Part shown: positions 1,007-58,340 of the stretch, in pieces
Numbering within the stretch: the stretch's first letter is position 1
Layout of the letters: each line of letters starts with the position of its first letter
Assembly: GCA_049724395.1 (NCBI GenBank)
Contig: JAUGWO010000014.1
Location: forward strand, 1 to 64,000
Length of the DNA stretch: 64,000 bases
Source: Spongospora subterranea f. sp. subterranea
Lineage: Eukaryota
Direction of reading: 5' to 3'
The notes under the pieces: model-generated
What the model was told of the DNA's origin: nothing
Database searches by the model: none
What the model saw: the letters and a program-made list of their open reading frames with translations, nothing else
Translations under genes and position numbers: made by a program

Positions 1007-4000
1007 TATTGACCGGTAGCGTATAGATTAGGGCGAAAAGCAAAGAAGCGTTTATATAGAAGTATAAGTAGCAATAAGGATCAAACGTACGCTAGGATCG
1101 TCTCTATCTGACACGCCCCTTCGATTCGAAGCTTACTACGACTTCGTCTCGATGTTTCTTGAACGAGTTTGGTCCTAGTGGTTTAGTCAAGATGTCTGCT
1201 GTCATCTTATCTGTACTGCAATATCGAAGTTCGATCGTCAGTTCTTTAACTTGTTCGCGAATAAAATGATATCGAATATCAATATGTTTTGTGCGTCGTT
1301 GTGTAACATTATTCTTTGCTAAGAAAATTGCGCTCTGATTATCTTGAAATATAATCACAGGTTGAGAGGTCTTCTCAATCATTTCTTGATATAAGTTCTT
1401 CAACCAAATAGCTTCCTTTGCTGCATCACAGCAGGCCATATATTCTGATTCAGTGGTTGATAGCGCCACAGATTTCTGCTTTGTTGATCGCCAAGATATG
1501 ATATCTTGTCCGAACATCAATAACCATCCAGTTGTAGACTTGCGATCATTAACGTCGTCAGCGAAGCTGCTGTCGGCATAACAGGCGATTGTCTCATCAG
1601 GCCTGCCAAACATTAGTCCATAATTTGCCGTTCCCTTCAGGTACTTGAATATCCGTTGGACGTATCTCCAGAGTTGTGTTGTTGGTTTCGACACGGATCG
1701 GCTCAGTTTGTTAACGATGTAGGCGATATCTGGTCGTGTCGCGTTCGCAATGAACATGAGTGCTCCTAAAGCTTCTCTAATTGGGTAGATGTTCGGCACG
1801 ATGTTTTCGTCTGTAATTTCGCAACCTGTCGCTGGTGTGGATTCTGGTTTGCAATTTACTTGTTTGAAGCGTCTTAGGAGTTGTAGGATATATGCACGTT
1901 GAGTTATGATTGAGTTGGCTTCTTGGTGTAGGATCTCGATCCCTAAGAACGTTTTTACTTCTCCGAGATCTTTCATTCGGTACGTTGAATGTAAAATCTG
2001 ATCGATCTCTGCGATCTTCACTTTGTCATTTCCAGTTATCAGTAAATCATCAACGTAAATTCCAATAATGATGACCAATTGTCCTGATGTACGATACCAT
2101 ATGCAAGGCTCGTAACCAGATTGTTGTAAATTGGTGTCTTTCAGTGTCTTAAACAGGGTTGTTTGCCATGCACGGCCTGCTTGTTTAAGTCCATATAGGG
2201 CTTTGTTTAGAAAGCAAACTTTGTTCTCCGCCCCTGGCTGAACGAAGCCCTCTGGCTGGGTCATGTAAATGGGTTCCAGCAGTTGTGCGTTTAAATATGC
2301 GGTTCGAAAGTCCCTGTGTGATAGTGGCCAATTGCGTTTCGTTGCAAGGCTCACGATGAAGCGCAGAGATGTGTAAGTTAAGACGGATGAGAAAGTGTCT
2401 GTATAATCAAGGCCATACCGTTGGGTAAAGCCCCTGGCAACGAATCTCGCCTTGAATGTTGGATGACCGTTGTCCATCTTTTTGGTAAATACCCATTTGC
2501 CTCGTATTGGCCTGTGTCCTTCGGGAATAGAGTCAACTAGTGTCCATGTACCGTTTTCTGAGTGTGCCTTCATCTCTGTAGCAGCGGCTCGCATCCAAAA
2601 TGCTGAATCGGGGCTTTGCAACGCGTCTTTAAAGGTATTGGGAACCTCCGATTGTGTTGTGTGGTAGTTGCTGTACTGATCGTGACTGAGCGCCAATGGA
2701 TCCTGATCGTCAATGGGTTCAGGTGGGCGTTGTCGCGGGAAAGATGATTCGTCAAACGTCATGTCGCGTCGAACAAGCACTTGTTTATCGTTATCGCGCA
2801 TGAAGATGTACCCTTTGGAGTATTGGGAATATCCAAGAAAAATACCTGGTTCCGCAGTGGGATCGAGAGAGGTTCTTAATGATGAATTGATATGAGAGTA
2901 TGCGACGCATCCGAAGGTTCGCATATGTCGTACATCCGGTTTGATGTCGCACCATAGTTCATGAGGTGTCCTCCATTGAATCGATTTCGTCGGTAATCGG
3001 TTCTGTGTATAAACGGCATAGCGCACGGCGAATATCCAGAATTCTGGTGGGAGACCGGCATCAATAAGAATCGTTCTCGCCATGTTCATTATCGTCAGGT
3101 TTCGACGTTCTGCTGTTCCGTTTTGTTGAGGGCTGTACGGTACAGTACGCTGGTGTTTAATTCCTTTTATCAGAAGGAAATCACTCACTGTCTTGTTGAC
3201 ATATTCTCCGCCGTTGTCTGTTAATAGTATGCTCAGGCGTTCTTTGGTTTCTGCCTTTCCATCAGCTAGGAATCGTTCAATACTTTCCTTGACTTCTTCG
3301 GGCGATTTGGTTTTTAAAAATGTTACCCAGCACCATTTCGAATAAAGGCAGTTGAATGTGATATAATACTGATATCCTTGACTCGTTGTTAGTAAGGGTC
3401 CTTTGAGATCAGAGCTTACTATTTCGAATTTTCTTGTCGATTTTGTTGTCCGTTCGGATGGAAATGGCTGGCGTCGGGCTTGGCCTAAAGCGCAACCACT
3501 ACATCGCGGTCGTTCGTCGATCATTATATCTATGCCATCGCAGTGTTCTGGTATTTTTCTTAATCTCTCGTCGCAGGCATGACCAAACCTTTGGTGCGCA
3601 TTGTGTAGGTTGATTTTTGCTCGTGATGTTGTTGAGTGTGCTTCATGTTCTCTGATTGGTTTCAAGTGGTAGAGGCCATTCTGATTGTAGGCAGTCAGTA
3701 CTATTTTACCACTTTCGTTTAGGACATGGAGATCCTTTTTGATGCTAATCTGATACCCTTGGGTAGTCAAAGAGTTTGTAGCGAGCAAGGTCTTCGTAAT
3801 ATTTGGAACATGAAGAACGTCCGGTATTGATATTGGTGGGGATTCTTGATAACGTCAGGGTCCCTTTTCCTATCGCTTGCAGGGTTCCACCATTACTAGC
3901 AGTAACTGGTGATGGCCTCTTCAAAGTTTGATATTTTGTGAGAAGATGTTTGTCCTGAGTCATGCTCACGTTTGCACCGCTATCAACGATCATGGCATTC

Positions 4001-5137
4001 TTTGACTTCTCCCATTTTCCTTGCTTTGATATGGTATGGAAACCATTAAACTCTTCTTCCTCTATCTCTTCTTGTTCTTGTTGGTTATGATTTGTATATC
4101 CCTTCCTTTGGTGTTTTCGTAATTCTGGGTGAGCAAACCAACACTGATCGATTTCGTGGTTTGTTTTCTTACATTTTGCGCATGGTTTGTTTTTCTTTGA
4201 GTTGTTCTTCCATCTTTTTGCCTCGGTGTTCAGAGATTTTATGTCTGGATCTTGATTTCTCGGCTGTTTGGTATCATTCATCGATGATACGCCGTCTTGC
4301 TCACTAGACAATAATAAGTTTGTCAGCCTGGGAATCGTTGTCACTTGGGCTGCTCTGGCGGCTGCCTTGATCTGCCGGTATGATTCCGGTAATCCGTCCA
4401 GGGTTTTTACACACACCGCTAGTTCGCTTAGTTCGATGTTGTATACTCGCAAATCATGGTGCAGCTCCACTATCTTGTCCAGGTAGTTCTTCATTGTTTG
4501 GGTAGGTTTCTTGGTACTATGAATAAACTGTAGGAACAGTTCTGATGCTTTTGCTTCAGCAGATGTTTCGTAGATTTCGTTTAATCGACTCCAGATTTGT
4601 CGTGTAGTTGTACATGTTGAGACCTGCTTGTACTGGGCTTGTGTCAGTCTAAGGCTGATTTGAGCTGTTGCCAGTCTATCGTTTCTTATTTCCCAACTTC
4701 TGGTTTGTATCGGGTCGTGTAGTAGGTACGTGTCTAGACCCATTATTACGAATTGGGTTTCTAGTTTTCGTTTGAATTCTTCCCAGTTCTTGCCATCGAA
4801 TTCTGGTATGAGTTTTAGTCCGGCGTTATATTTTGACAATTCGACTTCTTTGTTTAGCCAATGTTGGCTTGATATATTTTCGACTTGTTGTTGTCTGGTT
4901 TCGCGTCGATCTGGGTTTGTGACTTGATCAGAGTCGTCGACGGGGTTTGCGCTTCGTGTTTCGACCATTTGTATTTGTGCTTGGCAGGATTTTTAGCAGG
5001 GTGTGGGACTCTTAATCTATTGACCGGTAGCGTATAGATTAGGGCGAAAAGCAAAGAAGCGTTTATATAGAAGTAAAATAAAACCGTACGAGTAGCAATA
5101 ACGATCAACAGTACGCTATGATCGTCTCTATCTGACA
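1007..5137 (-). mobile_element. Full-length Ty1/copia LTR retrotransposon, copy 1 (4131 bp)
   Basis: LTRs at 5018-5137 (120 bp) and 1007-1113 (107 bp); 5-bp TSD (GATTT on +) at 1002-1006 and 5138-5142; PBS about 5003-5017; PPT GAAGGGGCG; domain order gag-PR-IN-RT-RH. Confidence 0.97.
1104..4968 (-). CDS. copia gag-pol polyprotein, split by a 1-nt insertion near 3843
   Basis: Zn knuckle CAKCKKTNHEIDQC, protease DSGA, integrase HQRFGH...CSGC with TDNGGEY and NGTAER, RT YVDD, RNase H YADSSFA and ADILTK. Confidence 0.95.
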
Positions 5138-50696: not shown

Positions 50697-51322
50697 TCTG
50701 AAATCTCATGGATTACCATAGAAAAGCACAGTAAAAACCACTCTTTGTGCCATTTTGTTAACGATTTTTAGAGGGTTTATGTTAAGGGGCGACGCACATA
50801 CGCAGCAACGGATACAACTTTGGTTTTTCTTCGATGATAGAATGTTTCAATGCGATTTGAAAAATATCGATAGTTTGGCTTTCATCGAACGTATTGCGAA
50901 GATCAGAGTGGCTATATATTGTTTGTGGTGATGATCTTATACTGCCATTACGAAATGACGCGCTGGTTGGTTAACATTGCAAGAGCGTTTTCTTGCTGCG
51001 ATCTCGCGAAAACACACGTTTAGGTTCGGGAGAGCAAGACATGACTTATTGGAAACCTTCTTTACTGGGATTGGGGACCAAACAAGTACTATTTTGAAAT
51101 GACTTTTTTGTTCGAGTAGGTTGTTGATAGCATGATAGTTACTAGGACGCCTGATGCTTTTATTTCTGTCAAACTTTGATCCCAGCAAAGTATGGTATGA
51201 TCACTCACGAGTCTTACGAAGCCCACCATTGTTATCGCCAATTGGTTGCTTCGAACTTGTTATATAACTCGCTATGTGCTGCTGCGAAGGCGGATGTATA
51301 GTGTAAAACAGTCACCGTTTAT

Positions 51323-53647
51323 TTAAACCTCCGAGAACCCAGGCTGCTGATGAAGAGCGACAATGGCGTCATATCGGGCAATTTTTTTTGTTGGTCCGTA
51401 GCCGATGCCATTTTGAGATGTTCCGTCCCATTTGGGAAGTGAGGCTTTCACAGTAAAAATGGGGCAGTGAGGAGGTCCAGTTCTTGATTCCTCAGAGTAG
51501 AGTACCCGTTGTTGAAGACGACCGATAATTGGATCTGGCTTCAGTTGCTTCGCCAACGTGAGGAGATCGCGAGACCCACAAATCCGTTTGTGCCCCTTTT
51601 GATCTACCGCATCAGGAACATCGGAATCCGCTTCTAACTGGTTGATCTGTTGAATCGCTTCGTTCATATTGTCTTCGCGAAGCACTAACCCCTCAACGTG
51701 CATGTCTCGACGCTCACGAACCATACTCAGATATCGAGCCGACTCGTTAGAACGGATCCGTCCACGAATCTGAACGAACGAGATCATGCTATTCGGAAGA
51801 CAGGTGCAGATAACCAAACAGCATGCAGGAATATCAACTCCCTCACCGCAGACCGACGTCGACACAACTACGTTGATCACTTGGTCGCGGAACTTCGACA
51901 GAACGGTTTTCTGCTGAGCGAGTGTCATTTCCGAGATACCGACCATAGCTTCTGCCTTGATAAACGGAATCCTGGAAATGTGTTTAACCAATTCTATAGC
52001 AAGACCTCTGGTTGACACGAAAATAAGTGCCGAAAAACCTTTGGGATCGGCATCATAATGCTGCGTAACAAGTTCCTCGATTTTGTTGACAACAGAACCT
52101 TGAAAATTGGAATCAGGGACGACAGCGGAAATAAACTCCTTTGCTCCAAAGCAATTTTTGGACTTGATGGTCTCGCCGACTTTGTCCCAACTCCATTTTA
52201 GCCCAAGTTCATTCAACTCGGAGCACGCGTTATAGACCTCAACTAAATGCTCGGATAGAGGCTCGTCCTCAGGACGCAACAATTGGGTCATCGCGAAAAA
52301 AGGAGCAGACGGGAACGTTACTGACTGAAGAGGAAGCAACTGGTTGAAATATCGCTCAGCAATATCCAGAAAATATTTTCGAATCCGCTCGAGAAGTTCA
52401 TGCTCGTGTCGATTCTGCTTTACTACAACCTGAAGTAATGGCGTCCGAGGCGATTTTTTACGTAGAGCGGCCAAAGTGGCCTTACTTGGAGCGATTGGCC
52501 TGGCAATGAGCCTTTTCAGAAGCTTCTCGAGCTTCTCACTGGTCTGAAGAAGGTCAAGCTCTCCCGCTGGCGAGGCCGTCAATGCCATAATCTTGGGCCG
52601 ATGTGCACCGTACAATTTGTGGAGTAAAGAGTTGAACAAATGATTCTTAGCGCAATGGTGAGCCTCGTCCATCACCAATGCACAGATCCTACCGAAGTCC
52701 AACAAATTCTATAAACAACAAAAACGTGAAAAGATGACCAGAAAATTTGTTATGCGCAAAGATCTCGTTTTTAAAAAAAAAACATAACCATCACTGAAAA
52801 TTTGGGAGGATGGAGATGCGAAACTAACCTGTTCAACTGCATTGAGATAGGAACCGGCGGTGGCAACGATAATATCAGCGCTACGAAGCTCAGCTATATG
52901 GTTGATATTGGGTTTGGATGGAAGCATGCTGCCAACTAAGATCCTGATCGATAGATCGCCGAGTTCATTGATGAGCACGGTATATTGTTGGATCGCTAAC
53001 GCGTTGGTCTCGACAATAAATAGCGCTGAAAACAGCGGGTTTAATTGAAGCATCCGCCTGATGAACATGGCGCTGATCAGCGTCTTGCCGAAACCAGTGG
53101 GTAAGAATATCAAAGAATTATCTGGCATGGCCATGGCGCGCTGGTACATATCCACCTGATAATCGTATGGTGACGATTTGGTTAATTGAGGGACTGGAGT
53201 ACTCGTATCAACTAATGTTAAATCTTCATTAAAGGTCTGCTTGATCAGGAATGATGTGTCGCTTGGTGGCTGATCTGGTTGACAAACTTGACAACTGGCC
53301 CATTCTCGTTGCTCAACAACAGTTTTCCAACTGGAGATCGGTACGGAATTGTACGTAACTGTCGTCGCTTTCAGCAATGCACCAAAGTCACCAGAATCAA
53401 ATTGTTTGATTGCGCCAATCTTATATTTGCACGCAGCGCAACATAGGTCTCCAATTTTCGAATATGGGGCCTTCGGGGGACGTGGATTCAACAACAAGAT
53501 CGCGATGGTCTCTGGAATTTGATCATTACTGCCGTGGTCGTCATACTGATACCCAACGTGAATCCCTGAAAAGGTCTTGAACCGGCACAGCTGCGTCAAA
53601 TCGGACTCTACCATGGCAAAACATGATCGGCATTCAACCGACGGCAT
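51323..53647 (-). CDS. RIG-I/MDA5-like SF2 RNA helicase with an N-terminal Zn domain and a C-terminal dsRBD (about 734 aa; intron 52709-52828)
   Basis: PYDYQ, LPTGFGKT, DEAHH, LTASP, IFVSTR, TSVCGEGVDIPAC and QIRGRIR; dsRBD GPPHCPIFTVKA...GPTKKIARYDA; a phase-0 GT..AG intron joins the two ORFs. Confidence 0.88.
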
Positions 53648-54919
53648 GACAATACAAAACTACAGTAGCCTGGCGTAATCGATTTATGATAATTCAACAG
53701 CCGCAATCGGAATTTCAGTATCGGTCCGGCAAAATGGCGCTACTGTACGTCGCAAGTGAGACTGGGCGATGGCGCGACTGTGCGTCGCGGATGAGACTGG
53801 GCGACTGGCAGTTGCACGAGAAGCGGTATCAAAAGAAGTGCCGTAACCTCTTCAACGAACCGTTCGCTTCATCAAACGCTCTTTTTAATCTGTGGAGAAA
53901 GTGACTACTGTACCCAGTTTCCAAGACATGACCTCGTATCTCATCGGCGGCGATATTCGCTTCATTGAGCGAAGTGAATCCAATCAGGCCGTATTGCATT
54001 TGTGATATCGAGACAACGCCGCCCATCACGTATTTTGTTCTAGGCTCTTCAGTGCCTATCCTAAATATCACAGAATAACTCGAAGATAAAATTATGATTT
54101 GCCCGAAAACTACAGCATTTCATTCACCGCAATGACAACGCCTCTGGTTCCGACGTTTCCTCAACCGATGTTGGCCATCAATCAAAGTGTTTATGGATAT
54201 TTCTGAGTTAATGGCATATCCTGCGATTACTCTCGACACGTCTTCTTGACTCAAGGCGGAGAAATAGCGATATCGTATCAAGAAATGTTTTTCATTTGGC
54301 TTTGCTACTTCAAAAATCACAATTCGGGATCAAGGCACTGATTTTGAACCCGGAATGCATTTTGGTTGCCGCGATTTGATTGTCGATAAAATATAGGTTT
54401 GGATAACCGATATGTTTGGTCATGATTCGATTGTTCAGCTGCGGCTAGCCATTTTAAAGCCATTGTCAAATTTGACAATGCACACAGAACAATAGTGAGT
54501 ATAGACCTCAGAGGTGTGACATTTTTTCCCAGCGAAGTCCAACGTGGTGGTTAATAAGGGTGGCCGACACTGGGGTAATGAGTAATAACGCGGCACGGTC
54601 AATGACTTGAGGTTTCTCGAAATATCGGTGTTCGGCAAAAAACTCGCATAGAGAATGAACCCGATAATATTGGTCTATTTTCCCTTCCATGACAAAAACA
54701 CTTAACAAATTTGGTGGTATTGAGAGCATAACAGATTTGACAGGAAGGCGCAGCATCAAGTTTGGTGTTGTTCCTCGGCAAAATGAATAACTGGTTTCAA
54801 GAGCTCAAAAACAGACCGGTCACGAGATGTTGCTGCAGCAACTCAGGCAACGGTCGAAGGCACAAAAGCAGATCTTCGGTTGCGCCATACTTGGAGATGA
54901 ATAACTCATGCAAAACAGT

Positions 54920-55002: not shown

Positions 55003-56560
55003 TGTTACCAGAAAATGCTCTAACATTTTCACACCGACGTTACTTAACACAGACAGCACTGTACACTCTATGATTCTCTGAGCGGGAAATCTTTATGTCC
55101 GCCAGTATGGTAGTACAGTACAGTGCACCCAACTGGCGGACAGAATCCTTTCCATCCGCCAGTCTCGTCACATAGTGTAGGTACTGCTGGCGGACAGAAT
55201 CCAGTCTGTCCGCCGGCGGACAGAAAGATTTCCCGTTCTCTGAGGGTATTAGGTCGGTTCGCCATCGACCTTCTTGAAAGGTTAAGAGTTCCAACTCTCG
55301 CAGCTAAGGATCAAGTGAACCATGCCCGACGAGGAAAGGACCGCACGACGCGTCCAACGGACAGAAGCCAATGATGCTCAAGAAGAGCATGGACACGTAG
55401 AAAGTGTTCATCTTCTGAAGACAGAAGTAAACCTTCAACCGTACGCAACGGTTTGAACCTCATACCCGAGTTCAACGGTAAGAACTGGGAAATTTTCAAG
55501 AGGAAACTGGATCACAGTTTATCCGCATGGGCATCGAAACTTACCTCGAATTTTTACCAGGCACATCAACGGCCAAAATAAGAAACGACCGAATCGCTTA
55601 CGCAGAAGTTACTATGAGACTTTCTCAACTTGCATACAAGCAAATTGCATCATGCCGCTATACCAAGGACGTGTGGGCAAAATCGTGTGAAATCTATAAC
55701 GAGAAGAAAGATGCTGAAGCTTCAACAAAATTCATAAAGTTCATCGAGGACAAGAAAAGTTCCACCGAGACAGTCAAGATCTACCTACTGTAGACCGCTT
55801 GATTGAGACGTATTATGATCTCGTCACGCTAGGCATAAACATGGGCGAAACAGCCCTATGCGCGAAGGCCCTGCACGGCCAATCACAAGATTATGAAGCC
55901 AAAGCGGCAGCTCGAGCTTCAGAGATCAAGACGATCGCGAAGCTGACGAATCATCGCGACAGAACGGGAGAAGATTGGCAACAAGCCAAAACGTGCAGAC
56001 ACCGAAGTTTGAAGCCGACGTTGCGGTAGAAAACACATGGACAAAGAAAGAAGAAGCATTGCACAAAGTGTTCACAGGACGGCCACGACAATCGTGAATG
56101 CTGGCGCCTGCATCCTGAATTGAAGCCAGACTGGCTAAAAGAGAAGGAGAAGAACCACACCAAATCATCGGCGGGTTTGAATTCAAGGGATACCGCGTTG
56201 TAACGTTCAACAACGCTAGTGCTGTAGATGGATATCTCATTGATAGTGGAGCAGATGTTTCCATCACGAAGGACCGAGCAATTCTCCAGAGTTATCAAAG
56301 CATGTCCAAACCGGTCTTTATACAGGCATGCAATGGCCAGGTATCCAAGGCAGCGGGGAAAGGTACATTGATACTATCAACAGAGCCGCTAATCACTCTG
56401 CCAAATGTCCTGCACGTGCCAAGCGCGACAAACACGCTGATTCTGGCACATACCCTTACGAAACTAGGCCTGACCATCGTCATCAAAGACACTATGCACA
56501 TCGCGACTGTAGATGGAGAGACCATCTTGACGGCGAAGATGAAGAACGGTCTGTGTGTCA
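55003..56560 (+). mobile_element. Degenerate copia 5' half (LTR, PBS, gag, protease) of a related family
   Basis: PBS-like GGTTAAGAGTTCCA at 55280; NGLNLIPEFNGKNWEIFKRKL, AAARASEI, YLIDSGADVSIT and LPNVLHVP align with copies 1 and 2; contains stops and frameshifts. Confidence 0.85.
55083..55235. mobile_element. 153-bp Mutator-like MITE inserted in the LTR
   Basis: 21-bp TIRs CGGGAAATCTTT(A/C)TGTCCGCC and a 9-bp TSD TTCTCTGAG at 55074-55082 and 55236-55244. Confidence 0.85.
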
Positions 56561-58340
56561 TGATCCGAAAGTCTTAGGTATATCAGGACCCGAGAATGAT
56601 GGCCTTGAGCCTTCAGAGTACCTTTTGGGTCAATTGGTAGCTGTCGGGCGACTTACACGTGGAGGTAGGTTATGAGGAGTCACAATTGAATCGCCAGCTT
56701 CGCCACAGTATAAGCATAAATTTTCGCGACAAACCCGTTCGAGACGTGTTCGGACGCGAAAGCCAACGCGCCATTAGTGCTCCCCGCGCTGCTCTCACGG
56801 TAGAAGAGAAGGACCGACGCCGTCGCGAGAATGTATGCTTATACTGTAGCGAAGCTGGCCATTCAATTGCGACTCATAACCTAACGTCACCGAACCATTT
56901 AAGGTCCATGATGGCTTTTTGTACAGACAACAGGAACTCGTAGTACCCACAGAAGCTGCACAACTCAAGATACTCGCACAGATCCACGACGGGCCATTAG
57001 GAGGTCACCTGGGTAGGCGGAAAACGCTTCAAGCATTTCAACGACATTTTTGGTGGTCCGGAGTGACCGATTTCGTTCGACGTTATGTCCAATCGTGTGT
57101 AATCGCTGTCAGCGAACCAAACTGCAGCGCAAGTCCCCACAAGGACTCTTAAGACCAAATCCAACGATTTTGACTCAATTCTCGTCGTGGTTGATCGATT
57201 GTCAAAAATGGCGCATTTTATCCCCTGCAAAGAATCAATCACATCTTCACAACTAGCTGAATTGATGCTACGGCAAGTGTTCCGGCTTCATGGACTTCCG
57301 GACGACGTTGTATCAGACCGCGACCCGCAGATGGTTGCAGGATTTTGGAATCGTCTTCTCCAACGGCTACAGATCTCAGGGAAACTGTCTACGTCAAGAC
57401 ATCCACAGACCAACGGACAGACAGAACTGGGTAATCAGGTGGTAGAGCATTAATTGAGGACGTTCACCTCCTATTAGCAAGATGACTGGGAAGATTGGCT
57501 GGCGCTAGCAGAATTTCAGTACAACAACACAGAGCATTCATCGACTCAAGTCTCCCCGTTCTTCGCTAATTATGGGTTCCATCCCCGCACAATCGATGTT
57601 CCGTCATTCCGCCGATCACAGCTCAATCCCTCTGCTGACGAAAGGGCGAATCACCTTCGAAGCATTCGTTTATTTTTACGACGACAACTCGAACAGGCCG
57701 TGAAATCGATGAAATAATACGCCGATAAAAACGATTCGATGTTCCCGCATATTCACTTAGCGAAGTTGGTTATGGTGAAGAGAACCGATTGGAATACAAC
57801 ACGACCATTCCCAAAACTCGAAGATCGATTCGCAGGCCCCTTCCCAATCATAGAAATCGTTAACGAGTTGACATACTCGGTGAAGCTACCAACAACCTGG
57901 CGGGTTCATAACACTTTCCATGTGTCCCAGCTTGAACCATATCACGCGAACGACATCACGAAACGAGAACAGGTCTGTCCACCAGAACCCGTATTCCTCC
58001 CAGAAGAATCCTCGCAGCCACTGTTTATCGTCCGAAACGTACTGGATTCGAGAATCTTATAGGAATCAACTATCGACTGGGAAGGCTATCCACCATCAGA
58101 GCGGTCATGGAAACCGGCGCGAGGACTCGCCGATAACTCTCCCGCTCTTCGTTAAGCAATCAGTCAATTCCATAGCCGATATCCCGACAAACCGAATGTA
58201 CAGTGACCCACATCAGACGATCTCATTCCCTGAAGACGAGTTACCAGAAGGGAATCAGATCGTATTATTAGTCGCCAATGCACACATCCTTAGTCTATTT
58301 CCTCCGTTTAGTCTCCTTCCTCCGTCCTTATCCTAACATG
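56560..58340 (+). mobile_element. Degenerate Ty3/gypsy chromovirus remnant (gag knuckle, integrase, chromodomain); boundaries approximate
   Basis: RRRENVCLYCSEAGH; HDGPLGGHLGRRKT; VVDRLSKMAHFIPC; VSDRDPQ; HPQTNGQTE; GPF; FIVRNVLDSR...DWEGYPPSERSW. Confidence 0.85.

What the first reader, a model, noticed from the sequence alone, without database searches (positions are those of the whole stretch)
51323..53647. Domain-permuted RIG-I-like receptor: RIG-I-CTD-like Zn domain, then helicase, then dsRBD
Seen: RLR/Dicer-family helicase motifs (LPTGFGKT, DEAHH, LTASP, EGVDIPAC, QIRGRIR) with no RNase III, PAZ or CARD. The first about 115 aa (VECRSCFAM...H...PRPPKAPYSKIGDLCCAACKYKIG...LLKATTV...ISSWK) follow the spacing of the RIG-I/MDA5 C-terminal regulatory domain as I recall it (LLCRKC...PKPK..FEKRAKIFC..NC..WG...VIK...YSKWK). 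A dsRBD occupies the C-terminal position instead. Inference: an intact CARD-less dsRNA/RNA-end sensor with shuffled architecture in a non-animal eukaryote, possibly acting in antiviral defence or RNAi like nematode DRH-1, and informative about RLR origins.
Basis: partly seen in the sequence, partly recalled or inferred. Interest (0 to 1): 0.85.

Follow-up and report, generated by a model that had tools for sequence, protein, structure and literature searches.

The report
Protist dsRNA helicase, RIG-I-like domain first
The potato parasite Spongospora expresses an intact, spliced gene for a helicase with a double-stranded-RNA-binding tail and, at its front, a zinc domain predicted to resemble the RNA-end sensor of animal RIG-I receptors; it likely helps this protist's RNA-silencing machinery, and it suggests that the sensor domain is not confined to animal RIG-I receptors.

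Summary
The gene is real. It has two exons, a 120-nt intron joined in 7 of 8 runs laid, and a 734-aa product identical to Spongospora subterranea CRZ09115.1. The helicase motifs are intact and the C-terminal dsRBD is confirmed. [quoted passage not shown] A low-confidence model best matches RIG-I, LGP2 and DRH-3 CTDs, but direct sequence support is marginal. It is not a rearranged canonical RIG-I-like receptor (RLR). The helicase is closest to brown-algal helicase-dsRBD proteins, invertebrate zinc-finger helicases, Dictyostelium helicase-dsRBD proteins and coral helicase-RdRP fusions (125-217 bits, against at most 77 for RLRs). Nesting within FANCM is rejected. The coral fusions carry the same CTD-first layout, and 3 of 16 pass Pfam's RIG-I_C-RD cut-off. 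Most likely role (inferred): a stand-alone dsRNA ATPase serving this organism's helicase-less RNase III. No canonical RLR was in the tree, so direction and age are open. Verdict: a new variant of a known kind.

The parts
52829..53647 (-). Coding exon 1 (aa 1-273): N-terminal zinc domain, linker, first part of Hel1
   Evidence: RNA contigs reach upstream to 53772 with no further exon
52709..52828 (-). 120-nt GT..AG intron, phase 0
   Evidence: joined in 7 of 8 runs laid, from 5 studies
51323..52708 (-). Coding exon 2 (aa 274-734 and stop): rest of Hel1, Hel2i, Hel2, helix after motif VI, dsRBD
53288..53647 (-). N-terminal beta-tent-like Zn domain (aa 1-120), predicted RIG-I-CTD-like; CxxC at 53632-53621 and 53440-53429
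   Evidence: four Cys invariant in a 16-sequence alignment; Foldseek on a low-confidence model; ESM feature leads; sequence similarity marginal
53081..53170 (-). Helicase Q motif and Walker A (aa 160-189)
52568..52669 (-). Motif II (DEAH) and motif III
52028..52567 (-). About 180-aa insertion between motifs III and IV (Hel2i position)
   Evidence: no Pfam RIG-I_C or RNA_helicase_helical hit
51752..52027 (-). Hel2 with motifs IV, V, VI
51359..51529 (-). C-terminal dsRBD (aa about 667-723) with the GPxH loop and KKxA motif
   Evidence: ADAR dsRBD E 7.9e-6; Pfam dsrm E 0.0015
50787..51322 (-). 3' UTR: short form ends near 51300; long form has two further introns (51208-51157, 51056-50996)
   Evidence: no long ORF in the spliced downstream piece

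Best explanation
The gene encodes a spliced, motif-complete helicase of the Dicer/RIG-I group with a C-terminal dsRBD, and it likely works as a stand-alone dsRNA-activated ATPase in the RNA-silencing pathway of Spongospora, with a predicted RIG-I-CTD-like zinc domain at the front helping to hold the duplex. Shown: gene structure, expression, intact motifs, dsRBD, and closest kinship to the RdRP-associated/HelF-type helicases. Predicted: beta-tent fold of aa 1-120. Inferred from the family: Hel1-Hel2i-Hel2 clamp and move along dsRNA using ATP, and the dsRBD adds affinity. Inferred from host gene content: S. subterranea has Argonautes and a single RNase III protein described with two RNase III domains and a dsRBD only, so this protein would supply the missing helicase in trans and feed viral or transposon dsRNA to it, much as DRH-1 plus RDE-4 serve DCR-1. 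Without CARDs it would not signal through MAVS-type adaptors.
For: Gene and motifs. Nearest helicases by phmmer: brown-algal 217 and 193 bits, invertebrate zinc-finger helicases 145-183, coral helicase-RdRP 126-165, Dictyostelium helicase-dsRBD 139-141, fungal Dicers at most 105, Hef at most 96; RLRs in the PDB at most 77. Tree: sister to the brown-algal proteins 100/100, on the non-FANCM side 100/100. Members of the family carry RNA-binding or RNAi modules: RdRP, dsRBD, dsRNA-binding C2H2 fingers, weak Z-alpha. RdRP-associated helicases are a clade distinct from Dicer helicases, found where Dicers lack a helicase (PMC4791657 passages). S. subterranea RNAi gene content: PMC4471660 passage. P. 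brassicae makes 21-nt siRNAs with a Drosha-like protein and no Dicer (PMC13547706 passages). N-domain: among isolated-domain hits, Foldseek ranks RIG-I CTD first (7bah, E 6e-4, TM 0.54 by target), then LGP2 and DRH-3 CTDs. A profile of six coral-type N-domains plus the query has the MDA5 CTD as its only PDB hit (E 0.058); without the query, 6 of 7 hits are LGP2 (E 0.09-1.3).
Against: There is no biochemical or genetic evidence. The N-domain model has pLDDT about 40-60 and was built on an alignment of presumed homologues, so it is partly circular. Query against the homologue profile: not above shuffles by hmmsearch or hhalign (18 of 150 and 14 of 150 shuffles as good), and marginal by global profile alignment (8 of 200 Cys-fixed shuffles as good). 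The domain is charge-neutral (12 K+R, 12 D+E) while four homologues are basic. In C. elegans DRH-1 binds the helicase domain of DCR-1 (PMC11095941 abstract), which the Spongospora RNase III is not described as having. The purified P. brassicae enzyme cuts dsRNA by itself. No P. brassicae orthologue appeared in three word-indexed searches. The one family member with genetics that I could trace, HelF, suppresses RNAi. No RNAi gene was found among 32 window ORFs scanned.
Confidence: 0.5

Rival explanations
1. HelF-like brake on RNAi: the same dsRNA ATPase binds or remodels dsRNA so that less is diced, limiting silencing of the organism's own transcripts.
For: Dictyostelium helicase-dsRBD proteins score 139-141 bits and share the helicase plus dsRBD make-up; grouping with them is not rejected (AU p 0.19). 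Deleting helF makes cells hypersensitive to RNAi (PMC2175303 passage). That these Dictyostelium hits are HelF or its orthologues is recalled, not shown by a call.
Against: The Dictyostelium proteins lack the N-terminal Zn domain and are not the sister group in the best tree.
Confidence: 0.22
2. A true RLR-like sensor with permuted order: the CTD caps viral RNA ends and the protein signals or forms filaments through an unknown partner, independently of RNAi.
For: Fold matches to RIG-I, LGP2 and DRH-3 CTDs. With Dicer and Hef families skipped, chordate RLR clusters rank just after a stramenopile helicase cluster in ESM features (0.92-0.93 against 0.95). Alignments to RIG-I run past motif VI. The host vectors potato mop-top virus.
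Against: RLR bit scores are no better than Dicer scores and far below the HelF/RdRP-type family. No CARD or other signalling domain and no RIG-I_C hit. Acidic D67 and neutral charge in the N-domain.
Confidence: 0.12
3. The N-domain is a beta-tent of the Yippee/Mis18/At4g08330 kind, or a decayed CTD, that binds protein or nothing. RNA is handled by helicase and dsRBD alone, as a free-standing remnant of a helicase-RdRP gene.
For: The top two ESM feature hits for aa 1-125 are At4g08330 beta-tent clusters (0.78, 0.77; RIG-I-CTD-named cluster 0.75; all leads only). Yippee-Mis18 scores as high as or higher than RIG-I_C-RD in 5 of 16 homologues. Neutral charge.
Against: No Mis18, Yippee, CULT or MsrB entry among the rows shown by Foldseek, where RLR CTDs recur. 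The His, Asn-Pro, Gly and Trp positions line up with the homologues.
Confidence: 0.14
4. FANCM/Mph1/Hef-type DNA translocase, as the UniRef label 'DNA helicase' suggests.
For: UniRef name. Archaeal Hef-like clusters fill 8 of 10 rows of the Atlas structure search. A position at the base of the Dicer/RdRP side, next to the Hef/FANCM outgroup, is not rejected (AU p 0.21).
Against: Nesting with eukaryotic FANCM-like proteins is rejected (AU p 0.0003). Motif VI is of the QxRGRxR type seen in Dicer-side rows, not the QRxGRxxR of Hef/FANCM rows. It has a dsRBD and no ERCC4 domain.
Confidence: 0.02

Closest known systems
RdRP-associated DEAD/H helicase clade (Dictyostelium RrpA-C, oomycete RDR, Hydra and Nematostella RdRPs; PMC4791657)
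   Same: Same helicase type, much closer than Dicers or RLRs. Coral-type members have a CxxC...CxxC domain at the same place and spacing before Walker A (59-60 against 63 aa between the pairs; 117-127 against 114 aa to Walker A).
   Different: No RdRP, a dsRBD in its place. The passages read describe only DEAD, helicase-C and RdRP domains, not an N-terminal CTD-like domain. The query and the CTD-bearing helicases as one clade is mildly rejected (AU p 0.042).
Dictyostelium HelF-type helicase-dsRBD proteins
   Same: Stand-alone helicase with a dsRBD, in an organism whose Dicer-like proteins lack a helicase.
   Different: They have no Zn domain, and their dsRBD is N-terminal or at both ends.
Brown-algal helicase-dsRBD proteins (Choristocarpus P0004, Discosporangium P0011)
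   Same: Sister group, 100/100; shared variants of motifs Ia, V and VI; weak C-terminal dsRBD in P0004. Probable orthologues.
   Different: Uncharacterised. The gene models look incomplete at the N-terminus, so whether they have the Zn domain is unknown.
RIG-I-like receptors (RIG-I, MDA5, LGP2) and nematode DRH-1/DRH-3
   Same: Duplex-RNA ATPase core with a Hel2i-type insertion, plus a predicted CTD-fold Zn domain. CARD-less like LGP2.
   Different: The CTD-like domain is N-terminal, a dsRBD is C-terminal, and the helicase is from another lineage by score. The host is a rhizarian, whereas RLRs are described as animal-specific (PMC3879448).

Membership tests
RIG-I-like receptor (RLR) | SF2 DExD/H helicase core with Hel2i insertion | tested here: met
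   Motifs and a 180-aa insertion between motifs III and IV; PDB hits to RLRs and Dicers
RIG-I-like receptor (RLR) | Zn-binding CTD/RD domain (Pfam PF11648) present | tested here: inconclusive
   No Pfam hit in the query; fold match on a low-confidence, alignment-dependent model; 3 of 16 homologues pass the cut-off
RIG-I-like receptor (RLR) | CTD lies C-terminal to the helicase, after the pincer | tested here: not met
   The C-terminus is a dsRBD; the Zn domain is aa 1-120
RIG-I-like receptor (RLR) | Helicase groups with the RLR clade | tested here: inconclusive
   Scores argue against it (at most 77 bits against 125-217), but no canonical RLR sequence could be fetched for the tree
RIG-I-like receptor (RLR) | N-terminal CARDs (RIG-I, MDA5; absent in LGP2) | tested here: not met
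   No CARD hit; RNA contigs show no upstream exon
RIG-I-like receptor (RLR) | dsRNA-stimulated ATPase and RNA-end binding | not testable with these tools
   needs biochemistry
Dicer | Tandem RNase III, PAZ, DUF283 | tested here: not met
   None found; the transcript ends without further coding sequence
FANCM/Mph1/Hef | Helicase nests with FANCM; QRxGR motif VI; ERCC4 or helical-bundle domain | tested here: not met
   AU p 0.0003
RdRP-associated / HelF-type helicases | Helicase closer to this group than to Dicer or RLR helicases | tested here: met
   deeper branching among these subgroups is unresolved, and grouping with Dicers is not rejected (AU p 0.08)
RdRP-associated / HelF-type helicases | Fused to an RdRP, or to a dsRBD as in HelF | tested here: met
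   dsRBD present; no RdRP
Yippee/Mis18/CULT/MsrB beta-tent domains | N-domain closer to these than to RLR CTD | tested here: inconclusive
   ESM leads favour At4g08330 slightly; Foldseek rows show RLR CTDs only; the VIA list was filled by the helicase half

The most novel reading that the evidence does not exclude
The pairing of an RLR-type CTD with a duplex-RNA helicase is older than animals. It survives in a CTD-first order in a rhizarian protist and in coral helicase-RdRP fusions. Animal RIG-I/MDA5/LGP2 would then have arisen by moving an existing module behind the helicase and adding CARDs, and the Spongospora protein would be a one-chain 'DRH-1 plus RDE-4' that completes a split Dicer.
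Probability: 0.3. Interest if true: 0.82.

Novelty: new variant of a known kind. Interest (0 to 1): 0.58.

Why it matters
A main account of RLR origins says that RLRs are absent outside animals and that their RNA-recognition domain has no detectable relative outside the family (PMC3879448, passages). A CTD-like domain in front of a non-RLR helicase, in a rhizarian and in coral RdRPs, names candidate relatives and makes the origin of that domain testable. It also offers a candidate for the missing helicase in plasmodiophorid RNAi, where small RNAs are made without a canonical Dicer, in an organism that carries a plant virus. The coral result is the firmer half: 3 of 16 homologues pass Pfam's curated cut-off. 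I did not find this layout described in ten literature searches. The library lacks most subscription papers, so reviews of RNAi domain evolution may already note it.

Tried and rejected
No whole genome is held, so paralogues, Argonautes and the RNase III gene were not checked directly. Single-sequence searches with the N-domain gave nothing: Pfam, PDB, 1.84 billion representatives (the one other hit, P0009, is a repeat protein and was rejected as spurious). A single-sequence fold of the 723-aa form failed (pLDDT 35) and was not searched. The VIA wide search was filled by the helicase half and did not test aa 1-141. The viral fold library gave mainly generic helicases. Profile tests of the query N-domain were negative or marginal, whereas the unnamed JGI protein P0034 matched the same profile strongly (0 of 120 shuffles as good). 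No canonical RLR was returned by any protein search, so none is in the tree. The raw-read run X22 held no read of the locus. The HelF paper was not held. Three look-ups of earlier findings returned nothing. Papers with K858/K861/K888 passages were not found, so the RIG-I residue equivalences are recalled. I rejected an extra coding exon after the stop and a FANCM identity.

Full report
Observation. The minus-strand gene runs from ATG 53647 to stop 51323 with one 120-nt GT..AG intron (52828-52709) and gives 734 aa. The joint is present in 4 of 4 runs and 3 of 4. In one search, X12 has only 20 letters on one side and X22 held no reads of the locus. The seven positive runs come from five studies. 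Contigs reach 53772 upstream with no further exon. The product is identical to CRZ09115.1 of Spongospora subterranea, a plasmodiophorid that vectors potato mop-top virus (PMC4471660, passages). All helicase motifs are present. Pfam finds DEAD, ResIII, Helicase_C and a sub-threshold dsrm, and no CARD, PAZ or RNase III. The last 89 residues match an ADAR dsRBD at E 7.9e-6.

The helicase. Against the PDB the best scores are an ancestral Dicer helicase (107 bits) and plant DCL1 (92). LGP2 reaches 77, RIG-I 60-76, MDA5 62-66, FANCM and Hef 61, DRH-1 50. With the same program, fetched relatives score 217 and 193 (brown algae), 145-183 (mollusc and hemichordate-type zinc-finger helicases), 126-165 (full-length coral-type helicase-RdRP group) and 139-141 (Dictyostelium helicase-dsRBD). 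Fungal Dicers reach at most 105 and Hef 96. These relatives were collected by likeness to the query. The tree used 43 helicase cores: 57 were labelled, 4 dropped for lack of a motif match and 10 to save time. It places the query as sister to two brown-algal proteins (100/100), on the non-FANCM side (100/100), and leaves deeper forks open. AU tests reject nesting in eukaryotic FANCM (p 0.0003) and mildly reject one clade of all CTD-bearing helicases (p 0.042). They do not reject grouping with Dicers (0.08), with the Dictyostelium proteins (0.19), or a basal position next to the outgroup (0.21). No canonical RLR could be fetched, so the tree does not test RLR membership. The ESM Atlas, with Dicer and Hef families skipped, ranks a stramenopile helicase cluster first (0.95) and chordate RLR clusters next (0.92-0.93); its structure search returns mostly archaeal Hef-like clusters and two chordate RNA-helicase clusters, one named DHX58. 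PMC4791657 (passages) describes RdRP-associated helicases of oomycetes, Dictyostelium, Hydra and Nematostella as one clade apart from Dicer helicases. This is the closest described group.

The N-terminal domain. Alone it has no Pfam, PDB or library match. Of 39 family proteins examined, 16 have both CxxC pairs before Walker A, 7 have only the second (probably late starts), 14 have none and 2 lack Walker A. Of the 16, 3 pass Pfam's RIG-I_C-RD cut-off, 8 hit it below the cut-off, 2 hit only Yippee-Mis18 and 3 hit neither. Spacing agrees with the query, and the four cysteines and a glycine are invariant in the alignment. Profiles of these N-domains find MDA5 or LGP2 CTDs in the PDB, weakly (E 0.058 with the query; 0.09-1.3 without). 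An AlphaFold2 model built on that alignment gives a beta-rich domain at pLDDT about 40-60. Its best isolated-domain Foldseek hits are RIG-I CTD (E 6e-4, TM 0.54 by target), LGP2 CTD and DRH-3 CTD, with no Mis18, Yippee, CULT or MsrB row shown. This is partly circular, because the alignment supplies presumed homologues. Independent single-sequence features point to the beta-tent clan at lead level only, with At4g08330 clusters slightly ahead of a RIG-I-CTD-named one. Direct tests of the query against the homologue profile are weak: within shuffles by hmmsearch and hhalign, 8 of 200 Cys-fixed shuffles as good by global alignment, pairwise E 0.038. I put a beta-tent fold at about 0.85 and specific homology to the RLR CTD at about 0.75. 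The domain is charge-neutral while four homologues are basic. D67 falls where chicken MDA5 has a glutamate (by transitive alignment); that RIG-I has a triphosphate-binding lysine there is recalled, not from a call. H30 matches the conserved histidine of the homologues; its equivalence to RIG-I H830, whose role is given in PMC6652118 (one passage), is inferred. 5'-triphosphate sensing is therefore unlikely, and RNA binding by this domain is unproven.

Mechanism. S. subterranea has Argonautes and only one gene with two RNase III domains and a dsRBD (PMC4471660). Its relative P. brassicae makes 21-nt small RNAs with a Drosha-like protein and has no Dicer or RdRP (PMC13547706, passages). In Dictyostelium the helicase is on the RdRPs and on HelF and not on the Dicers, and helF deletion increases RNAi (PMC2175303, passages; the HelF paper itself was not held). 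In C. elegans DRH-1 supplies most ATP hydrolysis to a DCR-1/RDE-4 complex (PMC11095941, abstract; PMC3793227, passages). The simplest reading is a free dsRNA ATPase with its own dsRBD that serves the helicase-less RNase III (0.5). The alternatives are a HelF-like brake (0.22), an N-domain that does not bind RNA (0.14), an RLR-like sensor (0.12) and a DNA translocase (0.02). All functional steps are inferred. Against the best reading, the P. brassicae enzyme cuts dsRNA unaided, no P. brassicae orthologue came up, and no RNAi gene was among 32 window ORFs scanned.

Novelty. PMC3879448 (passages) states that RLRs are absent from non-animals and that the RD has no relative outside RLRs. PMC8998645 (passages) treats variation at the RLR N-terminus only. 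PMC6396948, PMC8476169, PMC12768352, PMC10328071 and PMC5101713 (passages) showed no mention of a CTD-first helicase in the passages returned. Ten searches gave none at listing level. No supplements were read, and those of PMC4791657 may hold domain diagrams that bear on this. The helicase family is known and the protein is in public databases under the label 'DNA helicase'. The combination of CTD-like domain, helicase and dsRBD, and the CTD-first layout shared with coral RdRPs, appear undescribed. I rate it a new variant of a known kind, interest 0.58. The bolder reading, a pre-animal CTD-helicase module from which RLRs were rearranged, has probability about 0.3.

Noticed in passing
window 50787-51322 (-): One RNA contig extends the helicase transcript into a long 3' UTR with two spliced introns (52 and 61 nt) more than 100 nt past the stop; other runs end near 51300. 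This could be an isoform open to nonsense-mediated decay (inferred).
   Followed up: partly
window 50598: RNA contigs of three runs lack one base here, near the 3' end of the + strand thrombospondin-repeat gene; possibly an assembly error or an allele.
   Followed up: no
L001:84-6143, L002-L006: Coral-type CTD-like/helicase/RdRP genes occur as single long ORFs (L001 2020 aa, complete RdRP domain), often in clusters with many members. Only two proteins of this type carry a name, Stylophora pistillata.
   Followed up: partly
P0007, P0008, P0010, P0012, P0030: The same helicase type carries other modules: C2H2 dsRNA-binding fingers, a weak Z-alpha hit, or a nucleotidyltransferase domain. The family appears to swap RNA-sensing modules.
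   Followed up: no
P0034: An unnamed JGI protein with the CTD-first layout sits on a long branch apart from the coral group, so it may be a third lineage with this architecture.
   Followed up: partly
window 1107-4992, 21758-25758, 55482-58059: Two near-complete copia-type retroelements and degraded copia/gypsy fragments, the last about 2 kb upstream of the gene.
   Followed up: no
window 53799-54804: A transcribed neighbour upstream of the gene; its two ORFs scanned had no Pfam match.
   Followed up: no
window 27264-47895: Ordinary housekeeping genes: Sec15, Snf7/CHMP, zuotin-like DnaJ, an alcohol/sorbitol dehydrogenase, AP complex mu subunit.
   Followed up: no
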